The translations under genes were made by a program, and so were the position numbers. The notes beneath the pieces are model-generated. The model was given only the letters and a program-made list of their open reading frames with translations. It made no database searches and was not told where the DNA came from. Positions 5,887 through 59,859 of a stretch of DNA of 64,000 nt are shown one piece after another (the first letter of the stretch is position 1; each line of letters begins with the position of its first letter). Source of the stretch: Thermodesulfobacteriota bacterium (lineage in GTDB: Bacteria; Desulfobacterota; Anaeroferrophillalia; Anaeroferrophillales; Tharpellaceae). The DNA is taken from assembly GCA_024763535.1 (NCBI GenBank), contig JANTFH010000005.1, positions 4,612-68,611 of the forward strand, read 5' to 3'.

Positions 5887-8100
5887 TTAATATTTGTACT
5901 CTTTGTCTCCCAGAGTTTTAATCGTACTGTGTCTCTGGAGTTGAGCCCTGGCCCGATCAAGCAGATCCGTGACCTTTTTAGTCAGTTCCTTGGCAAACTC
6001 AAGGTTGTGAATCGGGTTTCCGTCCAGAAGTTTAAGGTTCTTCTCGGCGTTGTTGAGCAGATCCTGAGCCTCATACGTGTAATCTCCATTCTGGATGGCC
6101 AGCAGGACCGATCGCTGAGTTTGCTCAAGCTGTTCTTTAAGGCTGTCGATATTCAGGGCTTTAACCTCCTGACGCCACTCATCAACCATCTTGCCGTAGG
6201 CGGAGTCGTCATCGTGACACTCGATGCAGGCCTGTTTGAGGGCGGCATCGGTCATATCCTTCTCTTCGCTTACTTCAACATGGCAGTCGATACAGTTGAC
6301 CTCGGCCGCCATTGAACTGGGAGTTCCTTTGATGTCGCAACTTATTTCGTTGCAGGCATTCTGCCCGTGGATAAGATTGTAGGTGGCACTGTGACAATCT
6401 GCACACTCAACGGCACCGTTGCCGGAACCGTGGTGACAGTCTTTACAGTTTTTCAGGATCGTCCGGCCATGATGATCGCGGGAGCTGTGACAGTCGAGGC
6501 AGGCAAGGCCTTCGTCGACGACATGGACGTCATGCGGGAACTGAACATCACCGAAAGGTACGGGTTTGGTTTCAATACACTCAACACAGCTATGGCAGAG
6601 TTCGGTACAGCCGGTGGGTGAGGTAACCGCCTTAGCTTTGTAGGATGAATCGGCAATAGCTTTTGCTTTTTCACAACGTTCGCGACTGTCTGCGAGCAGA
6701 TTCAAAGCGTAATCGATGTTGTGGATTCCGTGGCTGTTCTTGACAAAGAGATAATTTTTCTGAGCTACCTCATAGAGTTTTGAGCCTTCTGGTGATTTTG
6801 TTTCGGTTAAAATCTGGTTGGTTTCGCGTAGGGTATTCGAGGTCTCGGCCAGCTCTTTTTTCAGAACCTCTTTCCAGTGCTTGGCCATATCGTCGTAACC
6901 GGCACCATGACACTCGGCACAGGATTTGATTAACTCATCAAAACCGGTACGTTTGAGTTTCCGGGTTTCACCATCGACATCATATACGGTCAGGTGACAG
7001 CTGGCACAGTCGAGGTGAGCCTTGTACATGCCGCTCGGCATCTCTTTAACATCCAGTCCGCCAACTCCGGCATACATGCTATGGACATTCTGGTGTTGAT
7101 CAAAGGTATGGCACTTGGCACAGTTGTGGTCATAGTGAAGCCCACTGTTGATTACCGCCGTTTTTATGATTCTCTGACGCTCCAGATACTTCGTCGATTT
7201 TTCGCGCGCGATATAGTGGTTGATATTGGCGTGGCAACGGAAACACTCAACCTTATGGGCAGTAACATGGTTGAAATGCATCTTTTCGCTGCTGTAACTG
7301 CCTTCCAGCAGATGAGGTTCGGAGTGACACTGGACGCAGACATTATCCATGACGTGGCCGTCACCGTAAATGATGCCGAAGTGACACTGCTCACAGTTAA
7401 CCCCGCGTTCGATGTAATCCTTGTGGACAAAAGGCTGATCCACATCCGCATCAACATATATCTTGGTTCGGTTTGAAGTATGGCAGGTCTGGCAGTCGGA
7501 AATCTCAAGATGGTTCTCTTTGTCGTAGAAGTGACACATGAAACAGGTGGTTTCCGTGACGGTGAGATGCTCACCCTGAACGATCTGGGAGTGGCAGCTG
7601 ACGCATTTCAGCTTTTTGCCGCGGCGCAGGTTGTCTAGATGGGTTTCATGGCTGAATTCGACCCCTTTGAAATTTACGGTGTTCTCTTTTAATTCGGTCA
7701 TCCCGTGACACCCATCTCGCAGACAGCTGGAATCGCTGATCTCGGTATGCGGCCGGGGGGGAGCCGTGCCGGTAATTTTCATAACTACATGTGTCTGAGC
7801 TTTCCATTTACCTTTGAGTTCGCCCCAGACGCCGGGCTCGAAATGACACTCAAGGCAACTGACTTCTTTATGGGAAGACTGTTTCCATGATTCGATATAG
7901 GAGTCCATGTTATGACACATACCACAGAATTTGTAGCTGGCGGTGGCCTTAAGGAGCAGGACGATCATTAGGATAAAGATACAGAAAGAAACAGCAAAGA
8001 ACACCAGCAGTCCTTTCCAGTGTTCGCGGGTACCGCGAGCCGCTTCGTGGCTGAAGTCACGGATAAAATCAATTAATAAATTCCACATTCTTCGAATCAT
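5887..8100 (-). CDS. Membrane-anchored multiheme c-type cytochrome, 737 aa. It has a NapC/NirT/NrfH-type N-terminus and about 15 canonical CxxCH sites plus 2-3 variant CxnCH sites.
   Basis: N-terminal cytoplasmic stretch and a transmembrane helix, then KFCGMCHNM...SCLECHFEPG (NrfH-like), followed by many CxxCH motifs and a C-terminal coiled-coil. AAGGAG ribosome-binding site 9 nt upstream. Confidence 0.85.
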   Translation of the reverse strand: MIRRMWNLLIDFIRDFSHEAARGTREHWKGLLVFFAVSFCIFILMIVLLLKATASYKFCGMCHNMDSYIESWKQSSHKEVSCLECHFEPGVWGELKGKWKAQTHVVMKITGTAPPRPHTEISDSSCLRDGCHGMTELKENTVNFKGVEFSHETHLDNLRRGKKLKCVSCHSQIVQGEHLTVTETTCFMCHFYDKENHLEISDCQTCHTSNRTKIYVDADVDQPFVHKDYIERGVNCEQCHFGIIYGDGHVMDNVCVQCHSEPHLLEGSYSSEKMHFNHVTAHKVECFRCHANINHYIAREKSTKYLERQRIIKTAVINSGLHYDHNCAKCHTFDQHQNVHSMYAGVGGLDVKEMPSGMYKAHLDCASCHLTVYDVDGETRKLKRTGFDELIKSCAECHGAGYDDMAKHWKEVLKKELAETSNTLRETNQILTETKSPEGSKLYEVAQKNYLFVKNSHGIHNIDYALNLLADSRERCEKAKAIADSSYKAKAVTSPTGCTELCHSCVECIETKPVPFGDVQFPHDVHVVDEGLACLDCHSSRDHHGRTILKNCKDCHHGSGNGAVECADCHSATYNLIHGQNACNEISCDIKGTPSSMAAEVNCIDCHVEVSEEKDMTDAALKQACIECHDDDSAYGKMVDEWRQEVKALNIDSLKEQLEQTQRSVLLAIQNGDYTYEAQDLLNNAEKNLKLLDGNPIHNLEFAKELTKKVTDLLDRARAQLQRHSTIKTLGDKEYKY

Positions 8101-11405: not shown

Positions 11406-11493
11406 TTAGGGAAAGTGTAAATTTTTTAAGTTAGTTCGTAAGTTAGTTTGAGTTGCGGAGTCTGTTTTCGCATTAGTGAATGGGAGTCGGTTG

Positions 11494-13446
11494 ATGGCTG
11501 AGATTTTATTTAGTTCCTGGGGTGGCGAGGTAGTTGATAACCGCCAAAAAGATGGCCAGGACTTTGAGCCGGTTAATACAGTTGATTTACCGGAATATTT
11601 CAGACAGGATGAAGCGGTTAAGGCTCTTATGGGCTGGTACGGCATCGTTATTCGTGACCCGGAAACCGATATCGTCGATTTGAGTCGGGTCTATATCCAG
11701 GAAGTTCAGAATAAATCCTGTGGTAAATGTTTTCTCTGTCGGATCGGCACCCGGGTTATGGCTGAGACTCTGACACGAATCTGTAATGGACAGGGCAAAT
11801 CTGAAGATCTTGAAATCTTAAAACGCCTGGCTGATTCAATTCGTGAATCCTCGAAATGTAATATCGGCCAATCCGGGCCCTTGCCGATTCTCGACGCTTT
11901 AGAGCATTTCGCCGCTGATTTCGAAGCTGCAATCAGCGCACAAAAGAGTGTTGCTGCCGGTACCTACCACTCAAAACTGACCGCACCCTGTATGGATGCC
12001 TGCCCGATCCATTTAGATATTCCCAATTATGTAGAGTGTATAAAAGAGGGACGTTTTGCCGAATCGCTTGATATTATTCGGGAAAAACTGCCGTTGCCGG
12101 GAGTTGTCGGCCGCGTCTGTGTGCGCCCCTGCGAAGAGCACTGCCGGCGTATGAATCTTGATGCTCCGATTTCGATCAAATTTCTCAAGCGTTTTGTTGC
12201 CGATTATGAACTGAGCAAAGGCAAAGAGCCTGAATTTGCAATTGAACCTTCAGAAAAAACCGGGAAGGTTGCGATTGTCGGCGCCGGCCCCAGCGGTGCA
12301 ACCTGTGCTTTCCATCTTGCAAAGATGGGCCATGATGTTACCGTTTATGAGCGTTTCGATGAACCCGGCGGCATGTCGGCCATGGGGATTCCTGATTATC
12401 GCCTGCCGCGCCCTATTCTTAGAGAAGAGGTTGACCGCATTGAGCGTATGGGGGCGACCTTTAATTACGAAACCACGGTCGGTAAAGATATTAAACTCTC
12501 CCAGCTTGAAGCCGATAACGATGCCGTGTTTATCGCTATCGGGGCCCAGATGGGTACGACGATGGGGGTTGAAGGTGAAGAAGAGAACTATGCCGGTTAT
12601 ATCTCCGGGGTGCAGTACCTGTTGGATATCAACCAGGGTCGGGATCCTTATCCTGAAGGTAAAAAAGTAGCAGTCATCGGCGGCGGCAACGTGGCGATCG
12701 ACTGTGTGCGCTGCTCCTTCCGGGTGGGCAAGGACGATGTCAATCTTATCTATCGCCGGACCAAAAATGAAATGCCGGCTGATGATGTTGAAATCCATGA
12801 CGCGGAAGAGGAAAAAGTCAATTTTCACTATCTTACGCATCCGGTTAAAATTCTGGCGGAAAACGGTAAAGTTGTTGGTCTGCGCTGTGTTAAAATGGAG
12901 TTAGGCGAGCCCGACGAGAGTGGTCGCCGGCGGCCGCAGCCGATTGAAGGTTCGGAATTTGTTATAGAGTGCGACATTGTGGTCCCGGCGATTGGCCAGA
13001 CGATGGATTTGTCTCTGCTTGAAGGACGTGAAGACGTTAAAACCACCCGCTGGAAAACGATTGTCGTTGACGAAGTAACTAAACAGAGCGACCAGCCGAA
13101 AATCTTCTCCGGCGGTGACTGTGAAACCGGTCCCGGGGCTTTGATTACTGCTTGTGCCGGAGGGCGGACGGCCGCTTTTAATATCGATAAGCTGATCAAT
13201 GGTGAACCGCTGGATTATACCGAAGATGACTATTTTGATAAATTTTTCAGTAAGGTTAAGGTCTTTGACCCGGCTGAAGATATTGGATTCTTAGGCGGTC
13301 GCGAGCGGAAAGAGCTGGAGATGCTTGATCCCGACACCCGCAAATTCACCAACGCTGAAGTGGAACAGGGCTTTTCGATTAACGATGCCATGGCTGAGGC
13401 CGATCGCTGTCTGCGCTGTTATCGGGTGGCAACTGTAAGAGTATAA
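11494..13446 (+). CDS. Fusion iron-sulfur flavoprotein: NuoF C-terminal 4Fe-4S domain joined to a GltD/NfnB-like 2x[4Fe-4S] FAD/NAD(P)H oxidoreductase. It lacks the NuoF FMN/NADH-binding domain.
   Basis: N-terminus SCGKCFLCRIGT...SKCNIGQSGP matches the NuoF 51-kDa C-terminal cluster. It continues with CMDACP...GRVCVRPCEEHC, VAIVGAGPSGATCAF (FAD-binding) and KKVAVIGGGNVAIDC (NAD(P)H-binding), as in the glutamate synthase beta chain family. Confidence 0.8.
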   Translation: MAEILFSSWGGEVVDNRQKDGQDFEPVNTVDLPEYFRQDEAVKALMGWYGIVIRDPETDIVDLSRVYIQEVQNKSCGKCFLCRIGTRVMAETLTRICNGQGKSEDLEILKRLADSIRESSKCNIGQSGPLPILDALEHFAADFEAAISAQKSVAAGTYHSKLTAPCMDACPIHLDIPNYVECIKEGRFAESLDIIREKLPLPGVVGRVCVRPCEEHCRRMNLDAPISIKFLKRFVADYELSKGKEPEFAIEPSEKTGKVAIVGAGPSGATCAFHLAKMGHDVTVYERFDEPGGMSAMGIPDYRLPRPILREEVDRIERMGATFNYETTVGKDIKLSQLEADNDAVFIAIGAQMGTTMGVEGEEENYAGYISGVQYLLDINQGRDPYPEGKKVAVIGGGNVAIDCVRCSFRVGKDDVNLIYRRTKNEMPADDVEIHDAEEEKVNFHYLTHPVKILAENGKVVGLRCVKMELGEPDESGRRRPQPIEGSEFVIECDIVVPAIGQTMDLSLLEGREDVKTTRWKTIVVDEVTKQSDQPKIFSGGDCETGPGALITACAGGRTAAFNIDKLINGEPLDYTEDDYFDKFFSKVKVFDPAEDIGFLGGRERKELEMLDPDTRKFTNAEVEQGFSINDAMAEADRCLRCYRVATVRV

Positions 13447-13532: not shown

Positions 13533-16208
13533 ATGGTCACGTTGACGATTGACGGCAAAGAAGTCACCGTCCCCCAGGGAACGACCATCCTTGAGGCGGC
13601 CCGGAGTGTCGATATCAGAATTCCGACACTCTGTTACCACGATCGTTTGAACCCTATCGGTTCATGTCGGATGTGTGTAGTTGAGATCGAAGGTTATACG
13701 CACCCGATGGCAGCCTGTACAACTCCGGTTGATGATGGGATTGAGGTTGTAACTAAATCTGATCGTCTGACTAGGATTCGTCAGGATTCGTTGAAACTGA
13801 TTCTGGTTAATCATCCGCTTGACTGTCCGGTTTGTGATAAGGGCGGCGAGTGCCTGTTGCAGGATTTGACCTACGAATTCGGGATTGATCAGGTTGAGTA
13901 TAAAGCGGCAAAAGTCGAGCGTGAATCACAGTATGCGACTCCGCTGATTCGTTACTGGCCCGACCGCTGTATCATGTGCCTGCGCTGCGTTACCGCCTGT
14001 CAGGAGATTAAGGGAATCGGCGCCATCAGTATTCAGGGAGACGGTTACGGAGCCCAGGTAGTGGCCGTAGATGCCGAGAAGTGTCAATCCTGCGGTGAGT
14101 GTCTGCAGGTCTGTCCGACCGGGGCCCTGACTGAGGATTTGAGCCGTTATAAAGGTCGCACCTGGCTGGTTGACAGAGTGCCGACCACCTGTACCTACTG
14201 CGGTTGCGGTTGTCAGCTTGAACTTAATGTTCAAAATGACCGGGTTATCGCCGTAACCACCCGGGAGGGGGTTGGCGTTAATCATGGCAGTCTCTGTGTC
14301 AAGGGCCGTTTCGGTTACGAATTTATCAACAGTGATGAACGGTTGACCAAACCGCTGATCAAGAAAAACGGCAAATTTGAAGAGGCGAGCTGGGATGAAG
14401 CTCTGGACCTGGTAGCCAGTAAGTTCTCTGCGATCAAAGAGGAACACGGCCCCGGTGCCCTGGCCGGCTTGACCTCGGCCCGTTGTACCAATGAAGAGAA
14501 CTACCTTTTCCAAAAATTTATGCGCGCGGCGGTCGGGACCAATAATGTCGATCACTGCGCCAGGCTCTGACACTCCTCAACTGTGGCCGGACTGGCCGCA
14601 ACGTTTGGCAGTGGAGCAATGACCAACCCGATTGCCGATGTCCTGAAATCAGAGACCGTATTGGTAACCGGAACTAATACCACGGAAAATCATCCGATTT
14701 TCGCCAATTACCTGAAAGAGGCCGTGCTTAAACACGGCACCAAGATTCTGGTGATCGATCCGCGGCGCATCGATCTGGTCGATTACGCCGAGCTCTACCT
14801 CCAGCCGAAACCGGGTACCGATATTGCCTGGATTAACGGTTTGATGCATATTATCATCAAGGAGGGCTGGGCGGCCCAGGATTATATCGACGAACGTTGT
14901 GAAGGTTTCGATGAATTTAAAAGCAATCTCGAAAAATTCACACCTGAATATGTTTCTGGAATTACCGGTCTGACCGAAGATGAGCTCTATGCCGCGGCCA
15001 AACTCTATGGCCAGGCGGCTCCGGCCTCAATCCTTTACGCCATGGGTATCACCCAGCATACCAGCGGTACCGATAATGTTAAATCATTAGGTAACCTGGC
15101 GATGCTTTGTGGTAACATGGGAGTTGCCGGCGGCGGCGTCAATCCGCTGCGGGGCCAGAACAATGTGCAGGGTGCCTGCGATATGGGTGGTCTGCCGAAT
15201 GTCTACACCGGTTATCAGAAGGTCGATGTTGATGAAGTGCGGGAGAAATTCGCCAAGGCCTGGGGGCTTGCGGCGGAGGCTATGGATTCAGCACCCGGTC
15301 TGAAACTGACCGAAATGTTTCCGGCAGCGGCCGAGGGTAAAGTCAAGGCTCTCTATATTATGGGTGAGAACCCGCTGGTCAGTGATCCCGATTTAACTCA
15401 TATTGAACACTGTATCGAAGCCCTTGATTTCTTCGTTGTGCAGGATATCTTTCTAACCGAAACGGCTAAGAAAGCCGATGTCGTGCTGCCCGGAGTCTCC
15501 TTTGCTGAAAAAGATGGAACCTTCGTCAATTCCGAGCGGGTTGTACAGCGGGTTCGTAAAGCATTAACGATTCCCGGCGAAGCTCGTGAAGACAGTGCTA
15601 TTATTGCCGATATCTCAACCCGTATGGGATATGAGATGAAATATGAAAGTGCCGCCGATATCATGAAAGAGATCAACGCTGTGACCCCGAGTTACGGCGG
15701 CATCACTTATGAACGTTTGGAAAACGGCGGCCTGGCCTGGCCCTGCCCCGACAGTGAACATCCCGGGACACCAATTCTGCATGTTGATAAATTTGCCCGC
15801 GGTAAAGGTCTCTTTTTCGCGATAGATCATCAGCCGCCGGCTGAACTCTGCGATAATGAGTATCCGTTTGTACTGTCGACCGGCCGTGTTCTCTCTCATT
15901 TCCATACCGGAACCATGACCCGCAAGGGTTCCGGCCTGAATAAGGTTCATCCTGAAGTCAAGGCTGAGATCAACCCTGAAGATGCCGCGCGTCTGGGGAT
16001 TGAAGCGGATGATCGTCTTAAGATTACCTCCCGCCGGGGTTCGATCGAGGTTAAAGCCATGCTCAGTGACCGTCCGGCAGCCGGGGTGGTATTTGTACCC
16101 TTTCACTTTCATGAAGTTGCAGTTAACCGTCTGACCAACGCGGCTCTCGATCCGGTTGCCAAAATTCCGGAATATAAGGTCTGCGCGATTAAGGTTGAAA
16201 AGGCTTAG
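13533..16208 (+). CDS. fdhA: NuoG/FdhA-like molybdopterin oxidoreductase catalytic subunit (formate dehydrogenase alpha-like) with selenocysteine encoded by in-frame TGA at 14568-14570
   Basis: ORFs 13533..14570 and 14583..16208 are in the same frame. The translation reads 2Fe-2S (CYHD...CRMC), HxxxCxxC, CIMCLRCVTAC, CQSCGECLQVCP, CTYCGCGCQ, then [29 protein letters not shown], the textbook Sec/Cys active-site motif of FdhA/FdhF. Confidence 0.85.
14582..14600 (+). ncRNA. SECIS-like hairpin 11 nt downstream of the fdhA UGA
   Basis: 7-bp stem tgtggcc/ggccgca with loop ggacu at +21..+25. Confidence 0.55.
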
Positions 16209-45116: not shown

Positions 45117-46829
45117 TTAAAGTCGGTAGCTGTAGACCGGAAACCGGGAGCAGAGATCACGGACGGTTGCCCGAGTTTCTGTAATTACCGAGTTGTCTTC
45201 CGGGTGCTTTAAGACACTGGAAATACAATCGGCGACGATCTCCATCTCCGCCTCCCGCATGCCCCGGGTTGAGGCGATCGGGGTGCCGATGCGAATGCCG
45301 CTGGGGTCGGTCGGGGTTCGGGGGTCAAAAGGGATGCCGTTTTTATTGATTGTAATGCCGGCTCGATCCAGGGCGGCTTCGGCACTCTGGCCCTTGACCG
45401 GAAGATCACTCAAATCTATCAGAAATAGATGATTGTCCGTACCCCCGGAGACGATGCGAAAACCTTTTTTCTGCAGGCATGAGGCCAGAAATGCGGCATT
45501 GGTCACGGTCTGTTTCTGGGTGGCGATGAATTCCGGAGTCGTAGCCTCCTTAAAAGCTACCGCTTTACCGGCAATCGTGTGCATCAGGGGGCCGCCCTGG
45601 AGACCGGGAAAGATAGCTTTGTCAATGCGGGCGGCGTATTGCTTGCGGCATAAAATCATGCCCCCACGGGGCCCGCGCATGGTTTTATGAGTGGTCGTAG
45701 TAACAAAATCCGCATAGGGCACCGGGGAGGGGTGGGCTCCGGCCACCACCAGCCCGGCGATGTGGGCAATGTCTACCATGACCATGGCTCCGATTTTGTC
45801 GGCAATGGCCCGGAAGCGGGGAAAGTCCAGAGTTCTGGAGTAGGAGCTGGCCCCGGCGACGATCAGTTTCGGTTTTTCCCGCAGAGCAATTTCTTCAATT
45901 ACATCATAATCTAAGGTTTCACTCTTTTGGTCAACTCCATAGTAGCATGACTGATAATGTGTTCCGGAAAAACTTACGAAGGCGCCATGGGTCAGGTGGC
46001 CGCCGTGAGCCAGATTCATTCCCAGGATTTTATCTCCCGGATTAAGAACGCTGAAATAGACGGCCATATTGGCACTTGAACCGGAGAGCGGCTGGACGTT
46101 GGCATGTTCAGCCCCGAAAAGAGCACAGGCACGATCTATCGCCAGCTGCTCCACCTGATCAACAAACTGGCAGCCGCCGTAGTAGCGTTTCCCCGGATAA
46201 CCTTCAGCGTATTTATTGGTCAGCGCGCTGCCCTGAGCTTCGAGTACTGCCTGACTGACACAGTTTTCGGAAGCAATCATAATCAGCTTGCTCTCTTCCC
46301 GTTCAGTCTCCTGCCGGATGAGCCGGCTGATTTCAGGGTCAACCCGGTCAATCGGGGCGCTGACGTCCCTGGTGGAGTTGAGATTGCGGTTTTCGATCTT
46401 CTCCAGCCGGCGTTGATGGCGGCCGTTCTCGTATTCAGAATCGAGCCAGATCTGCACCAGTTCCAAGGCCTCGGCCGGTTCCAGCACACGTCCGCCGAGA
46501 ACGATAATGTTGGCGTTATTGTGCTCTTTCGCCATTCGCGCCGTAAATTGGTCGTGGACCAGAGCCGCCCGGATATTCCGGTGGCGGTTCGCGGTAATCG
46601 ACATGCCGATACCGGTGCCGCAGATCAAGATTCCTGAAGCCTCAGGGAGGCCTGCAACCTGGCCGGCCAGCAGATGAGCAAAATCAGGATAATCGACCGA
46701 GTCTTCGGAGTTGGTACCCAGATCTTTAAGCTGGATTCTTCCCTTGAGATTCTCTTTGATGTATTCTTTGAGTGCGAAACCACCATGGTCGCTGGCGATA
46801 AACAGGGTTTTGGGGTTGTTGTCAGGCAT
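45117..46829 (-). CDS. glyA: Fusion protein: ribose-5-phosphate isomerase B (N-terminus) joined to serine hydroxymethyltransferase (C-terminus)
   Basis: The N-terminal ~150 aa have the RpiB motifs ([36 protein letters not shown]). A short linker follows, then GlyA ([11 protein letters not shown]...[20 protein letters not shown]...[16 protein letters not shown]...THKT). One uninterrupted frame. Confidence 0.85.
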
Positions 46830-56430: not shown

Positions 56431-57441
56431 ATGAAAATGAAGAAAAATTGGCTTTTGCTGGGTGCAGGGTTGCTGATGGTGCTGGCGATGACCATCACGG
56501 CCTGTACGACTTTGAGTGATCAAAGAGCCAGCGTTCTCAAGTTGCCGGTTCCCGTTCAGGGGGCTCAGTTTGCCGGGAGTGAGGCTTGTGCCGACTGCCA
56601 CGAAGAACTGGTGGCAACTTTCAGCGGCTCGATTCATGATCGGATCCTGGCCAAAGAGACAGCGATCGGCATGAAAGGCTGTGAGACCTGCCATGGTCCC
56701 GCCAGCCTGCATATGGATTCTGAGGATCCGGAACAGATTATCGCTTTTGAAAATCTGGATGCCGGAACTTCATCCGCGGTCTGTCTGCGTTGTCATAGTG
56801 ACGGTGAACATTTCGACTGGGCCGGTACCTCGCATCCGATGAATGATGTCGGTTGCTTGAGCTGTCATAAAATCCATAATCCACCGGTGGCGAAAAATTC
56901 GCTGGAAAAGGCCGAGCCGGAACTCTGTTATGAGTGTCATGCGCTGGAGCGGGCGAAGATGTACTATCCTTCGCATCATCCGGTTAAAGAGGGCAAGATG
57001 GTCTGCAGTGACTGTCACGCCAATCACGGTTCAATGGTTAATAACCTGAAAACCGATGAACGTCTTAACGATCTCTGTTTAAATTGTCATGCCCGTTATC
57101 AGGGCCCGTTCGTTTTCGAACATTCACCGGTTTCCGATGATTGTATGATCTGTCACGATCCGCACGGTACGGTTTCTAATAATCTCAAAAAAGCGAATGA
57201 ACCTTACCTCTGCCTGCAGTGTCACGAGCCGCATTTCCACGCCGGCCGGACTTCAACCCCGACGGGTGTAATGAAGGATCCGTATGGTAATTTGGTTCCA
57301 GAGAAAGATTATAACAGCGGTAATAAAAATGTTTGGGCTCAGGCTTACGCTACCAAATGTACTCAGTGTCATGCCCAGATTCACGGCAGCGATCTGCCCT
57401 CCCAGACGGTTCCCGGACAGGGCGGGGGTTTAACCAGATAA
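56431..57441 (+). CDS. Periplasmic decaheme c-type cytochrome (MtrA/PioA/MtoA-like size and heme count)
   Basis: Signal peptide with a possible lipobox (ITAC) and 10 CxxCH motifs in 336 aa. A beta-barrel gene follows 15 nt downstream. Confidence 0.85.
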   Translation: MKMKKNWLLLGAGLLMVLAMTITACTTLSDQRASVLKLPVPVQGAQFAGSEACADCHEELVATFSGSIHDRILAKETAIGMKGCETCHGPASLHMDSEDPEQIIAFENLDAGTSSAVCLRCHSDGEHFDWAGTSHPMNDVGCLSCHKIHNPPVAKNSLEKAEPELCYECHALERAKMYYPSHHPVKEGKMVCSDCHANHGSMVNNLKTDERLNDLCLNCHARYQGPFVFEHSPVSDDCMICHDPHGTVSNNLKKANEPYLCLQCHEPHFHAGRTSTPTGVMKDPYGNLVPEKDYNSGNKNVWAQAYATKCTQCHAQIHGSDLPSQTVPGQGGGLTR

Positions 57442-57455
57442 TTTAAGGAGAGATT

Positions 57456-59780
57456 ATGAAACGTATTGCACAATACACGATTCTGGCCCTCTGCCTGGTG
57501 CTGGTACCGGTTCTTGCGTGGGCGGGACAAACCACGGGCAGTGTCGGGATTGGTATTCAGGGAGTCGATATTAACGACTCACGCGAGGGTGCGGCTGAGT
57601 ATCTTACTGCCGAACAGGGCGGCCGGCCGACATTTGACATGACGGTCAACGGCGAACAAAACGGCGTCAAATATGATTTCGGGATGAATTTTCTCAATGA
57701 AGATGATCTTGGTGGCAATCTTGATTTAGACCTGAAGCGTTATTTTAGGACTAAAAACAGTTACCAGAAATTTAACCACTGGTTGGAAAATGATGACCTC
57801 GTTAACCATAATGAGGATCCTGATTTTAGGTTTCCAACCGGAATGACAGAAACAAACCCTTACTACATTGCGGCCGCCAGTAAGGCAGTTTTTAATAAAC
57901 CGCAAGTAATGGGACCCAATATTGCGGTAGCCCGGAATACTTCCTGGGGCGATGATCTTTATGTTGTCCGTGATGAATTTGTTTCCGAGAATGAATTTCT
58001 GCTTCCCGGAGCCGAGTTCATTAAAATTCATGCAAAATATCGGATGGAACAGCGTGAAGGTTACGAACAGACCAAGACTTTGAGTAAATGCGGCGGCTGT
58101 CATCTGGCGGCGGATAAACACAAAATCGATGAAGAGACCCAGGATTTTCAGATCGGGGCGACCGCTCATTTAGGTCTGGTAACTCTGGATTACACCTTCC
58201 TGCGACGCACTTTTGATGAGAATTCAAACGCGCCGACACATACTTATATGTCAGCCGGGTCATTGCAGAAAAAGATGGCGATTGACGGATCTGATGGTGA
58301 AGTGATCTATGCCGCGACCCCGGATTCCGAGAAGGATTCTCATATTATCAAAGCTCAGGTGGCGTTGCCGATGAATACGGCGGTTTTCGGTAGCTACGTT
58401 CATACCGAAATCGATAATAATGACGCCAAGAGCAATAATGTGGGTGATGTAACTATCAGCAGCGATCCGGGTTTTGATTATGATGCCTACGCGATGCGGG
58501 TTACCTCTTCACCGCTTCACTTTATGACGATGTCATTCAAGTATCGTCATGAAGATCTCGACGCTGATGATGTTACAATTCTGTTTGATGACTCAGCTTA
58601 TGACCCGCTGGGGCGTGATTCCCAAGTACTGGATCCGACAAACTACGGTCTCCATGGCTACTCGGAAGAGCATGACGGCTGGCCGCGTGAACGGCAGTCG
58701 ACCCTGTCTCGCAATATCGACACTTACGGGGCCGAGTTCAAATTCAAGGTTTTCAAACGTACCAACCTGCTGGTTGGCTGGGAGCGGGAAGAGGAAGATA
58801 TCGATGTTGAGTGGGAGACCACCACGGATATCTATTCGGTTGCTTTAAACAGTCGTCTGATTAAAAATTTGAGTCTGCGTCTGCAGTATGATTACGAGGA
58901 TATTGACGATCCTTTCGCTAATGAGCACGCGGCTTATACTGATCCGGCAGCTATGCTTACCTGGCTTAAGGCGACGGTCGATCCCACCTGTGGTCTGCCG
59001 GCCTGTAGTATTAAAGGTATGGCCAGTCCCGGCAGCCCCAAAGCGGCCGAGTATACGGTGATGTATAACAGTCGTCAGCTTGATCTGACTTCCGAGCCCG
59101 AAAGTGCGCATCATTTCAAAGCGCATGCCTCTTATAACATTACACCGCGCATTGTTGCCAGTGGTCATTTCCAGTATGATCTGGAAGAGGTCAAAATTGA
59201 TGCGCCGGGACATGGCAACACCTTCGACAAGGAGATGTATGCTGTGGGGGCCGATCTTTTTCTCGCACCGCTGGATAATCTGACGTTTACGTTGGCTTAT
59301 AACTACCTCGATATGGAGGATCAGGCTTTTCTCTCCGCGGTTGCCTATGGCGGCTGAGCCGGCTCTTTTTTGTCCCCAAGTTATGGGGTCACATTGTCGG
59401 ATATGGAGAACAACACCGAAGTTCACACCCTGCTTGTAAGTGCTGATCTTGCAGCGACTGAGAAACTTAAATTCAACGGTGGTATAATCTTTAACTGGAG
59501 CAAATCCGAGATGGATAATCTCAGTGCCTCCTATTATGAAGGTAAGCAGCCGGCCGCATTTGGTTACGACCATGCGATCGCTTTCAGTACCTGGGAAGAT
59601 AATACCGATCAGGATATTCAGGAGGTTGAGTACTACCTGGGTTGTTCGTATGATGTCAATGATATGATGTCAGTTAATATTAATGCCTCATATACCGACT
59701 ATACCGATGACGAGCCCTATCTTTATGATACTGATGGCGATCTCCTCCTGGTTAATGCCGGTCTGACTTTCAGATTCTAA
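57456..59780 (+). CDS. Outer-membrane beta-barrel protein (MtrB/PioB-like porin partner of the decaheme cytochrome). It contains an in-frame TGA at 59355-59357 and one CGGCH motif.
   Basis: Signal peptide and amphipathic beta-strand pattern. ORFs 57456..59357 and 59370..59780 share a frame with no intervening stops. Only the downstream piece ends in the typical outer-membrane-protein C-terminal signature ...GLTFRF. Confidence 0.55.
59374..59388 (+). ncRNA. SECIS-like hairpin 16 nt downstream of the UGA at 59355
   Basis: Stem cccca/ugggg with loop aguua at +24..+28 from the UGA. Confidence 0.3.
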
Positions 59781-59822
59781 GCTGAAATTTAGTTGTTGAA
59801 AATGAGGGCTTAACCAACACAA

Positions 59823-59859
59823 AAAGGCCCCGACTTTATTAAAGTCGGGGCCTTTTTTT
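59823..59859 (+). terminator. Intrinsic terminator after the cytochrome-porin operon
   Basis: Hairpin aaaggccccgacttt/aaagtcggggccttt followed by a 7-nt T-run. Confidence 0.75.

What the first reader, a model, noticed from the sequence alone, without database searches (positions are those of the whole stretch)
57456..59780. Outer-membrane beta-barrel partner of a decaheme cytochrome carries an in-frame TGA and a CxxCH motif
The barrel ORF stops at TGA 59355-59357, but the same frame continues without stops for 136 more codons and ends with ...GLTFRF, the canonical C-terminal aromatic signature required for BAM-dependent insertion. The upstream piece ends ...AVAYGG and lacks that signature. 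A 5-bp hairpin with loop AGUUA lies at +24..+28, similar to the fdhA SECIS spacing. Either this is a Sec-containing outer-membrane protein, which would be unusual since Sec proteins are mostly cytoplasmic or periplasmic redox enzymes, or a recent pseudogenisation of the conduit. The barrel also has a CGGCH heme motif, unusual for porins.
Basis: partly seen in the sequence, partly recalled or inferred. Interest (0 to 1): 0.6.

Follow-up and report, generated by a model that had tools for sequence, protein, structure and literature searches.

The report
Selenocysteine-containing haem-motif outer-membrane conduit barrel
The in-frame TGA is a genuine selenocysteine codon in a 774-residue MtrB-like outer-membrane barrel that also carries a conserved haem-binding motif and partners a ten-haem cytochrome; the family is already catalogued (NCBIfam GSU2204/"OmcL") but nobody has tested what the selenium and the haem do.

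Summary
In detail: ORF 57456-59357 stops at TGA 59355-59357. The same frame runs 140 more codons to TAA 59778-59780 and ends GLTFRF. CGGCH sits at residues 212-216, and a 5-bp hairpin with loop AGUUA lies at 59374-59388.

It is not a pseudogene. In 20 of 20 loci examined (89% down to 23% protein identity) the aligned codon is TGA. Wherever the contig continues, a conserved 137-161 codon extension follows and ends in an aromatic residue. Distant full-length relatives carry Cys at that column. The post-TGA hairpin keeps its position and its A-G-(G/U)-U loop while the stem changes by paired substitutions. The same window has a canonical FdhA Sec site, and TGA also serves as an ordinary stop.

NCBIfam NF041027, "GSU2204 family CXXCH-containing (seleno)protein", matches at 503 bits and ends exactly before the TGA. 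Two selenoproteome reviews list the family. The upstream gene is a GSU2203/OmcK-family decahaem cytochrome.

An AlphaFold model of a Cys-form homologue (pLDDT 90.6) is a 26-strand MtrB-like barrel. By strand parity, the CXXCH and the Sec position each sit at the tip of a long hairpin on the outer face.

The parts
56431..57441 (+). Partner decahaem c-type cytochrome (GSU2203/OmcK family, MtrA/DmsE-like), 10 CXXCH, with a lipoprotein signal (…MTITAC)
   Evidence: NF041028 430 bits (cutoff 325) and TIGR03508 DmsE family 248 bits (cutoff 192). The lipobox is conserved in all complete orthologues, and the stop lies 14 nt before the barrel's start codon.
57456..59780 (+). Full-length read-through gene for the 774-residue barrel (633 aa + Sec634 + 140 aa; stop TAA 59778-59780)
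   Evidence: NF041027 503 bits (cutoff 350) ends at residue 633. Pfam MtrB_PioB 42 bits. The same architecture is present in 20 loci.
57456..57524 (+). Probable Sec-type signal peptide (MKRIAQYTILALCLVLVPVLAWA|GQ)
   Evidence: Read from the sequence. The cleavage site is inferred and was not predicted with a tool.
57777..57779 (+). His108, near-invariant histidine at the outer end of strand 5; candidate second haem ligand
   Evidence: His in 118 of 123 aligned family members. Maps to P0092 H115, at the outer end of strand 5.
58089..58103 (+). CGGCH haem c attachment motif (Cys212, Cys215, His216)
   Evidence: Invariant in A1. C/C/H in 116 of about 121-123 members. Maps to the tip of the hairpin formed by strands 7/8.
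59355..59357 (+). UGA selenocysteine codon (Sec634)
   Evidence: TGA at the aligned codon in 20/20 loci, always followed by G. Cys at this column in P0092, P0098 and P0142. Maps to the tip of the hairpin formed by strands 21/22.
59371..59391 (+). Bacterial SECIS-like hairpin (core CCCCA-AGUUA-UGGGG at 59374-59388, extended by UG/CA)
   Evidence: 92% of cells paired, 4 of 6 pairs with changes on both sides, slid controls 19-47%.
59358..59777 (+). C-terminal extension encoding the last five barrel strands
   Evidence: The extension is conserved in all loci with downstream DNA. Five strands follow the Sec-equivalent Cys in the model.
59748..59777 (+). C-terminal beta-signal (…LLLVNAGLTFRF, terminal Phe)
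   Evidence: Every extension in the 19 loci with downstream DNA ends in an aromatic residue, here Phe. Its role as a BAM signal is established knowledge and was not tested here.
59821..59857 (.). Strong intrinsic-terminator hairpin (17 pairs) flanked by A/T runs, downstream of the true stop
   Evidence: sequence.

Best explanation
The TGA at 59355 is decoded as selenocysteine with the help of a SECIS hairpin that starts 16 nt after it. The product is one 774-residue outer-membrane protein of the GSU2204 ('OmcL') family. It is a 26-strand MtrB-like barrel that is made and exported with a signal peptide, receives a c-type haem at its conserved CXXCH, and is inserted through its C-terminal ...TFRF signal. 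It pairs with the lipoprotein decahaem cytochrome encoded 14 nt upstream (GSU2203/OmcK family) to form a two-gene porin-cytochrome conduit that carries electrons across the outer membrane. The CXXCH (loop 4) and the Sec (loop 11) each sit at the tip of one of the two longest hairpins, on the outer side of the barrel. Most other family-invariant residues, including His108, cluster on that side too. I infer that the barrel carries its own haem/selenol redox site at the outer mouth, which takes the place of a separate MtrC-type surface cytochrome. Stopping at the UGA would remove the last five strands and the insertion signal, so making the conduit should depend on selenium. Shown here: conservation of the UGA, the Cys homologues, the SECIS covariation, family membership, the barrel fold of a homologue, and the side of the membrane inferred from strand parity. 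Inferred: haem attachment, Se incorporation, the proximity of Sec to the haem, and the function.
For: Sec decoding:
- TGA is conserved in 20/20 loci at 89-23% identity. Extensions of 137-161 codons end in an aromatic residue in all 19 loci with downstream DNA.
- 122 of 160 family sequences of at least 400 aa stop at that column.
- Cys occupies the column in P0092, P0098 and P0142. NCBI names P0092 and P0142 as GSU2204-family (seleno)proteins.
- The hairpin is at the same offset in 17 distinct sequences and in about the top 1% of in-gene windows. Formal pair count: 91.7% paired against 69% in shuffles (0/500), and 4 of 6 pairs changed on both sides.
- The window has a canonical FdhA Sec site. 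TGA is an ordinary stop for 9 of 40 long ORFs.

Family:
- NF041027 scores 503 bits and ends at residue 633. NF041028 matches the partner.
- Reviews PMC13188914 and PMC9312934 list the family as a selenoprotein.

Fold and topology:
- The AF2 model of P0092 has pLDDT 90.6 and 26 strands. The best PDB match is MtrB, 6r2q_B, E 2e-23, TM 0.66/0.73.
- CXXCH follows 7 strands and the Sec position precedes 5 strands, so both lie on the outer side.
- Invariant residues cluster on that side.

Conduit role:
- The decahaem gene is always immediately upstream.
- GSU2203 and GSU2204 are 2.4-2.7-fold up with hematite (PMC4070692).
- The OmcKL pair is reported 4-fold more highly expressed than OetABI in the HotSeep-1 partner of ANME consortia (PMC10553843).
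Against: - No selA, selB, selC or selD was found in the parts of the window I examined, and no tRNA was found at all.
- Rfam has no matching SECIS model.
- The window's hairpin on its own is not significant against shuffles (z -0.69).
The loop bearing the Sec position has low confidence (pLDDT below 50 at residues 580-587).
- I had no coordinates, so the Sec-haem distance is unknown.
- The two hairpins are 14 strands apart, roughly opposite each other on the barrel.
- More distant full-length relatives keep the CXXCH but have Gly, Ser, Lys, Leu and other residues at the Sec column. The haem site therefore does not strictly need Sec or Cys.
- I know of no precedent for a haem on an extracellular loop of a barrel.
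- The orientation rests on the general rule that both barrel termini are periplasmic.
Confidence: 0.9

Rival explanations
1. Recent pseudogenisation or a sequencing/assembly error: a nonsense mutation broke the barrel gene, and the downstream frame is a decaying remnant.
For: Gene callers and public records split the gene into a 633-aa and a 125-aa ORF.
Against: The same TGA occurs in 20/20 independent assemblies spanning 89-23% identity. The peptide is conserved on both sides and the extension is intact in every locus with downstream DNA. Cys homologues exist, and the RNA hairpin covaries.
Confidence: 0.01
2. UGA is a true stop, and two proteins are made: a 633-residue barrel fragment and a separate small protein of about 125-136 residues that complements it, or does something else.
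For: A weak terminator-like hairpin plus a T-run straddles the TGA in the window (59352-59364). An ATG lies 48 nt downstream, and databases annotate a 125-aa ORF from it.
Against: - The 15 codons between the TGA and that ATG are conserved as protein (AG[ST][FY]L.PS[FY]G.TL).
- The T-run is not conserved in orthologues.
- I saw no good ribosome-binding site before the internal ATG (sequence).
- Cys-form homologues are single continuous chains whose last five strands close the barrel.
- The upstream piece ends in Gly-Gly, not in an aromatic insertion signal.
Confidence: 0.02
3. Sec is incorporated, but the CXXCH is not a haem site. It would be a redox disulfide or metal site, like the N-terminal CXXC of Shewanella MtrB (recalled from memory), and Sec would act as a thiol-like redox or metal-binding residue without haem.
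For: No experiment shows haem on any family member. I know of no haem-bearing barrel loop. Carrying a covalently attached haem across the membrane during BAM insertion is unproven.
Against: The His of CXXCH is as conserved as the two Cys (116 of 123), which is the signature of haem c attachment rather than of a CXXC disulfide. A second near-invariant His (H108) lies on the same face. NCBI curators named the family after the CXXCH. The Geobacter member has long been annotated as 'cytochrome c family protein, putative'.
Confidence: 0.12
4. The organism, or the whole set of relatives, uses a reassigned genetic code in which UGA is a sense codon (Trp or Gly).
For: UGA reassignment exists in some uncultured bacterial lineages (general knowledge).
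Against: Only three in-frame TGAs in the 64-kb window have at least 100 codons on each side. One is the FdhA Sec site, one is this site, and one lies antisense to a cytochrome gene. Nine of 40 long ORFs end in TGA.
Confidence: 0.005

Closest known systems
NCBIfam NF041027 'GSU2204 family CXXCH-containing (seleno)protein' (Geobacter sulfurreducens GSU2204, called OmcL in PMC10553843) with its partner NF041028 GSU2203/OmcK decahaem cytochrome
   Same: The match is above the curated cutoff and the model ends exactly at the residue before the UGA. The protein has the CXXCH, a Sec at the site where other members have Cys, and a decahaem gene immediately upstream. It is a member.
   Different: Nothing defining differs. 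The window belongs to a marine-sediment/vent clade (relatives in Thermodesulfobacteriota and Candidatus Tharpella MAGs) that is only about 25% identical to the more divergent members. It has Ser rather than Cys at position -7 from the Sec.
MtrB of the Shewanella MtrCAB complex (PDB 6R2Q chain B); Pfam PF11854 MtrB_PioB
   Same: Both have a large 26-strand barrel fold (TM 0.66/0.73 for the homologue model), a Pfam match, a partner decahaem of the MtrA/DmsE family, and a presumed role as the sheath of a transmembrane haem wire.
   Different: MtrB has neither CXXCH nor Sec. No MtrC-type surface decahaem is encoded next to the pair here. The partner decahaem has a conserved lipobox, which MtrA, to my knowledge, lacks. 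Sequence identity to 6r2q_B is about 10%.
PioAB / MtoAB two-component conduits of iron-oxidising bacteria
   Same: These are also two-gene modules, an MtrA-like decahaem plus an MtrB/PioB barrel with no MtrC-like gene (from general knowledge of these systems).
   Different: Their barrels are not known to carry a haem motif or Sec. The direction of electron flow here is unknown.
Other predicted extracytoplasmic selenoproteins of Geobacter-type conduits (ExtKL multihaem cytochrome selenoprotein, NF040886)
   Same: It is listed in the same table of review PMC13188914 as a Sec-containing component of an extracellular electron transfer gene cluster, with no assigned Sec motif.
   Different: ExtKL is a soluble or lipoprotein multihaem cytochrome, not a barrel. 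I did not test any relationship.
Canonical bacterial SECIS of formate dehydrogenase (fdhF/fdhA)
   Same: Both are hairpins inside the coding sequence just after the UGA, with an apical loop containing G-U about 21-28 nt from the U. The window's own fdhA provides a direct comparison.
   Different: The stem is shorter (5 bp plus 2 after a mismatch). The loop is A-G-U-U-A rather than G-G-A-C-U. No bulged U was identified.

Membership tests
NCBIfam NF041027 GSU2204 family CXXCH-containing (seleno)protein | HMM score at or above the curated cutoff (350 bits), full-length match to the model | tested here: met
   503.2 bits; protein residues 10-633 match model positions 1-580 of 580.
NCBIfam NF041027 GSU2204 family CXXCH-containing (seleno)protein | Conserved CXXCH motif | tested here: met
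   CGGCH at 212-216. Invariant in A1 and present in 116 of about 121-123 members.
NCBIfam NF041027 GSU2204 family CXXCH-containing (seleno)protein | UGA (Sec) or Cys directly after the end of the 'part 1' model, followed by a C-terminal extension | tested here: met
   TGA immediately after residue 633, then a 140-codon extension. Cys in P0092 and P0142, which NCBI names as family members.
NCBIfam NF041027 GSU2204 family CXXCH-containing (seleno)protein | Adjacent GSU2203-family decahaem cytochrome | tested here: met
   NF041028 430 bits against a cutoff of 325. A decahaem gene lies upstream in every locus examined.
Bacterial selenoprotein (SelB/SECIS-dependent UGA decoding) | In-frame UGA conserved in orthologues with conserved coding sequence on both sides | tested here: met
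   20/20 loci.
Bacterial selenoprotein (SelB/SECIS-dependent UGA decoding) | Cys-containing homologues aligned to the UGA | tested here: met
   P0092, P0098 and P0142 have Cys at the column.
Bacterial selenoprotein (SelB/SECIS-dependent UGA decoding) | Stem-loop shortly downstream of the UGA with G in the apical loop, supported by covariation | tested here: met
   No Rfam family covers it.
Bacterial selenoprotein (SelB/SECIS-dependent UGA decoding) | Sec machinery (selA, selB, selC, selD) in the genome | tested here: inconclusive
   None was seen in the parts of the 64-kb window I examined, and no tRNA was found. However, a canonical FdhA Sec site in the same window implies the machinery exists.
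Bacterial selenoprotein (SelB/SECIS-dependent UGA decoding) | Selenium demonstrated in the protein | not testable with these tools
   Needs 75Se labelling or mass spectrometry.
MtrB/PioB outer-membrane barrel (PF11854; structure 6R2Q_B) | Pfam match above the gathering score | tested here: met
   42.4 bits against 23.
MtrB/PioB outer-membrane barrel (PF11854; structure 6R2Q_B) | 26-strand barrel fold | tested here: met
   Tested on the Cys-form homologue P0092, not on the window protein itself. The model has 26 strands and its best PDB match is 6r2q_B at TM 0.66/0.73.
MtrB/PioB outer-membrane barrel (PF11854; structure 6R2Q_B) | Partner MtrA/DmsE-family decahaem | tested here: met
   TIGR03508 247.9 bits against 192.2.
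MtrCAB three-component complex | Adjacent MtrC/OmcA-type surface decahaem lipoprotein gene | tested here: not met
   The neighbours are ETF/acyl-CoA dehydrogenase genes on the opposite strand upstream and unrelated genes downstream. The module has two genes in all loci.
c-type cytochrome (covalent haem) | CXXCH in an exported polypeptide | tested here: met
   The motif is conserved. An N-terminal signal-like sequence is visible (judged by eye).
c-type cytochrome (covalent haem) | Haem shown to be attached | not testable with these tools
   Needs haem staining, spectroscopy or mass spectrometry.

The most novel reading that the evidence does not exclude
The barrel's single c-type haem (loop 4) and the selenocysteine (loop 11, on the roughly opposite hairpin) meet over the outer mouth of the barrel. 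They would form a surface-exposed haem/selenolate site, possibly a His/Sec-ligated haem analogous to the His/Cys haems of sulfur-oxidising enzymes. That site would be the terminal electron exit or entry point of the OmcK-OmcL conduit, and would make conduit assembly selenium-dependent in Geobacter relatives and in the sulfate-reducing partners of methane-oxidising archaea.
Probability: 0.2. Interest if true: 0.8.

Novelty: already known. Interest (0 to 1): 0.4.

Why it matters
Two literatures describe the same protein without referring to each other. Selenoproteome surveys and NCBI's curated models list the GSU2204 family as a selenoprotein of unknown function. Work on extracellular electron transfer and methane-oxidising consortia treats 'OmcKL' as an ordinary porin-cytochrome conduit and does not mention selenium or a haem in the porin (0 occurrences of 'selenocysteine' in PMC10553843).

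If the barrel carries its own haem and a selenol at its outer mouth, it would be the first outer-membrane barrel acting as a redox protein rather than an insulating sheath. It would also be a rare cell-surface selenoprotein. Selenium supply would then limit a conduit that is reported as highly expressed in syntrophic consortia.

For annotation, the practical point is that most public records of this gene are split into a truncated 'MtrB/PioB' protein and a 125-residue hypothetical protein.

Tried and rejected
- Rfam at gathering threshold on the whole window, and at E up to 10 on 59300-59480: no SECIS family matched, only two noise hits. I know of no general bacterial SECIS family in Rfam.
- ARAGORN found no tRNA, so no tRNA-Sec, in the window.
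- Submitting the read-through protein failed.
- The 16-sequence alignment A1 was too diverse for the metagenome scan. The narrower A2 returned only 7 loci, all from the close clade.
- The DNA for the Cys form P0098 was unavailable, so I did not confirm a TGC/TGT codon at DNA level.
- Reference 61 of the 2026 review is the GOS paper PMC2398784, which does not mention this protein in its main text. I could not trace the original report. Haft & Tolstoy 2025 (PMC12013261) is not held.
- The literature search for 'OmcL' mostly hit the OMCL clustering algorithm.
- The small terminator-like hairpin over the TGA was considered as evidence for true termination and rejected, because its T-run is not conserved in the orthologues.
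- A fixed-column structure on the 17-sequence alignment A3 was abandoned because the hairpin register shifts by 1-3 nt between clades. I used a register-aware script and a 6-sequence same-register alignment instead.
Full report
**1. What is in the sequence**

- ORF 57456..59357 (633 aa) ends ...AVAYGG followed by TGA at 59355-59357.
- The same frame continues for 140 codons to TAA at 59778-59780 and ends ...LLLVNAGLTFRF.
- The protein starts with a signal-like sequence (MKRIAQYTILALCLVLVPVLAWA|GQ, judged by eye) and has CGGCH at residues 212-216 (58089-58103).
- Sixteen nucleotides after the TGA lies CCCCA-AGUUA-UGGGG (59374-59388). RNAfold extends it by two pairs after a mismatch.
- A strong 17-pair terminator hairpin follows the TAA at 59821-59857.
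- Fourteen nucleotides upstream of the start codon ends a 336-aa protein with ten CXXCH motifs (56431..57441).

**2. Family**

- The 633-aa piece matches NCBIfam NF041027, 'GSU2204 family CXXCH-containing (seleno)protein' (model name GSU2204_Se_pt_1), at 503 bits against a cutoff of 350. The match covers the whole model, and the model ends at residue 633, the last residue before the TGA.
- The upstream protein matches NF041028 (GSU2203 family decahaem cytochrome, 430 bits) and the DmsE/MtrA family TIGR03508 (248 bits).
- Pfam gives MtrB_PioB for the barrel (42 bits).
- The 140-aa extension matches no library model.
- Two reviews of prokaryotic selenoproteomes list this family as a predicted selenoprotein with no assigned Sec motif (PMC13188914; PMC9312934).
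- In G. sulfurreducens, GSU2203 is OmcK and GSU2204 is annotated as a 'cytochrome c family protein, putative'. Both rise 2.4-2.7-fold with hematite (PMC4070692).
- A study of sulfate-reducing partners of ANME archaea calls the pair the OmcKL porin:cytochrome conduit and reports it 4-fold more expressed than OetABI in HotSeep-1. It does not mention selenocysteine (PMC10553843).

**3. Is the UGA a Sec codon?**

(a) Conservation of the codon.
- I collected DNA for 19 related loci from genome and metagenome collections: L001-L004, L005, L006-L012 and L013-L019. They span 89% down to 23% protein identity.
- All of them have TGA at the aligned codon, always followed by G. The preceding Gly is invariant.
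- Wherever the contig continues, an in-frame extension of 137-161 codons follows and ends in an aromatic residue.
- All 35 close database homologues of the upstream piece are 625-656 aa. All 32 homologues of the downstream piece are separately called ORFs of about 125 aa. Gene callers therefore split this gene everywhere.
- In an exhaustive HMMER search (218 representatives), 122 of 160 sequences of at least 400 aa end at this column. I confirmed TGA by DNA only for the 20 loci; for the rest it is inferred.

(b) Cys homologues.
- Full-length relatives P0092, P0098 and P0142 have Cys exactly at the column.
- NCBI names P0092 (Acidobacteriota MAG) and P0142 (Desulfuromonas thiophila) as GSU2204-family (seleno)proteins.
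- More distant full-length forms have Gly, Ser, Lys, His, Leu or Val there.

(c) SECIS.
- Seventeen distinct sequences all have a hairpin starting about 17-20 nt after the TGA, with an A-G-(G/U)-U loop.
- Its folding energy is in about the top 1% (median 0.011, worst 0.15) of all 26-nt windows of the same gene.
- The stems differ between clades: CCCC/GGGG, CGACCC/GGGUCG, CGGACC/GGUCCG, CGAGCC/GGCUCG, GCUCCC/GGGAGC.
- On six divergent sequences in one register, 91.7% of cells pair against 69% in shuffles (0 of 500 reach it). Four of six pairs carry changes on both sides. Sliding the 3' arm by 1-3 columns drops pairing to 19-47%.
- Caveats: there are only six sequences, the region also encodes a conserved peptide, and the window's hairpin alone is not significant against shuffles (z -0.69).

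(d) The organism decodes Sec.
- The window contains a NuoG-type FdhA gene interrupted by TGA at 14568 inside the motif NVDHCARL-U-HSSTVAGL. The Pfam Molybdopterin domain is split across the codon.
- A hairpin follows with its apical loop at +22..+26.
- TGA also ends 9 of 40 long ORFs, and only three in-frame TGAs with long flanks exist in the window. The genetic code is therefore standard.

Together these points exclude a pseudogene, an assembly error, two independent genes and a reassigned code.

**4. Structure and topology**

- The read-through protein could not be submitted, and a single-sequence model of P0098 failed.
- With a 133-row family alignment that includes both window pieces, the Cys-form P0092 (723 aa, 22-24% identical to the window pieces) gave a confident model: mean pLDDT 90.6 and pTM 0.86.
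- I count 26 long strands in it.
- Foldseek against the PDB puts MtrB of the Mtr complex first (6r2q_B, E 2e-23, TM 0.66/0.73). The 22-strand TonB-dependent transporters score TM below 0.5.
- Mapped through the alignment, the CXXCH (P0092 C190-H194 = window C212-H216) lies at the tip of the hairpin made by strands 7 (21 residues) and 8 (26 residues).
- The Sec-equivalent Cys580 (window U634) lies at the tip of the hairpin made by strands 21 (22 residues) and 22 (23 residues). That loop has low confidence (residues 580-587).
- Seven strands precede the first site and five follow the second. Given the general rule that both barrel termini are periplasmic, both sites are on the outer side. The long-loop/short-turn alternation in the model fits this rule throughout.
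- P0092 has only four Cys (56, 190, 193, 580), and the window protein has no Cys conserved near the Sec. A fixed selenenyl-sulfide partner is therefore unlikely.
- Many of the family-invariant residues lie on the outer side: His108 at the outer end of strand 5 (His in 118 of 123), K211-C-x-x-C-H216, P289/K293, P486/Y537/R540/P548, and Y631/G633.
- I had no coordinates, so I cannot say whether loops 4 and 11, which are 14 strands apart and thus roughly opposite, touch.

**5. Partner cytochrome**

The decahaem has a lipoprotein signal (…MTITAC). This signal is conserved in every complete orthologue as ITAC, LAAC, VAAC, LAGC, LFAC, LGAC or IGC. By sequence it belongs to the MtrA/DmsE family, but it is probably lipid-anchored. 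Whether it enters the barrel from the periplasm or from the cell surface is open. No MtrC-type gene lies next to the pair in any locus.

**6. Mechanism, with what is shown and what is inferred**

- Shown: a conserved UGA with a SECIS-like hairpin, Cys homologues, family membership, an MtrB-like fold for a homologue, and the outer-side position of both special sites by strand parity.
- Inferred from established knowledge: SelB/SECIS decoding, Sec-pathway export, Ccm haem attachment at CXXCH, and BAM insertion through the C-terminal aromatic signal.
- It follows that termination at the UGA would yield a product lacking five strands and the insertion signal, so conduit assembly should need selenium.
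- More speculative: the barrel's own haem, with His108 or Sec634 as the second ligand or with Sec as a nearby redox residue, forms the outermost redox station of a two-gene conduit that lacks a surface cytochrome.
- Against a strict haem-Sec coupling, the CXXCH persists in relatives with non-Cys residues at the Sec column.

**7. Novelty and score**

The finding re-discovers a family that NCBI curators already model and name as a selenoprotein and that two reviews list. The label is therefore 'already known'.

What remains unknown is experimental: no study in the searched library addresses the Sec, the haem or the topology. The electron-transfer literature appears unaware of either feature.

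The new elements here are computational. They are the 20/20 UGA conservation with SECIS covariation, the predominance of Sec over Cys forms, the placement of both the CXXCH and the Sec at the tips of long outer-face hairpins of a 26-strand barrel, and the conserved lipobox on the partner.

Interest is 0.4. The feature is real and biologically intriguing, but it is not a new discovery.

Noticed in passing
window 13533-16208 (+), TGA at 14568-14570: A second selenoprotein gene: a NuoG-type formate dehydrogenase alpha subunit with the canonical motif NVDHCARL-U-HSSTVAGL. The Pfam Molybdopterin domain is split across the TGA, and a SECIS hairpin follows with apical loop GGACU at +22..+26. The ORF just upstream (11476-13446) is a glutamate-synthase-small-subunit-like NAD(P)-binding protein.
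   Followed up: partly
window 56431-57441 (+) and the upstream genes in L001-L018: The MtrA/DmsE-family decahaem partner carries a lipoprotein signal (…ITAC, Cys25). It is conserved in all complete orthologues (LAAC, VAAC, LAGC, LFAC, LGAC, IGC). This raises the question of which face of the outer membrane it sits on.
   Followed up: partly
L005, L013, L014, L016-L019 around their TGA (positions listed): Seven of the eight divergent Sec-form loci (all but L015) have a Cys seven residues before the Sec (C-x6-U). Four of them (L005, L015, L016, L017) have another Cys 13 residues after it. The window clade has Ser at -7 and no nearby Cys.
   Followed up: no
window 59352-59364 (+): A weak terminator-like hairpin (5 pairs, two of them G-U) whose loop includes the TGA, followed by CTTTTTTG. 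The T-run is specific to this window and absent from orthologues, so it is probably chance.
   Followed up: yes
window 45117-46829 (-): A single 570-aa ORF that fuses ribose-5-phosphate isomerase B (residues 8-147) to serine hydroxymethyltransferase (residues 164-566).
   Followed up: no
window 5887-8100 (-): A 737-aa ORF whose N-terminus resembles the NrfH quinol-dehydrogenase cytochrome (residues 33-173). It may be an inner-membrane electron input for the periplasmic/outer-membrane haem chain. The in-frame TGA found at 6313 on the + strand lies antisense to this gene and is probably spurious.
   Followed up: no
L005 8485-9087 (+): A TusA-domain (sulfur-carrier) gene lies shortly downstream of the conduit in the 27%-identity relative. 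It is not seen at the other loci.
   Followed up: no
public records of the homologues: In the public records seen here, the Sec forms of this gene appear as two ORFs: a 625-656-aa 'MtrB/PioB family' protein and a ~125-aa hypothetical protein (also named 'predicted porin' or 'opacity protein-like surface antigen'). This is a systematic mis-annotation.
   Followed up: yes
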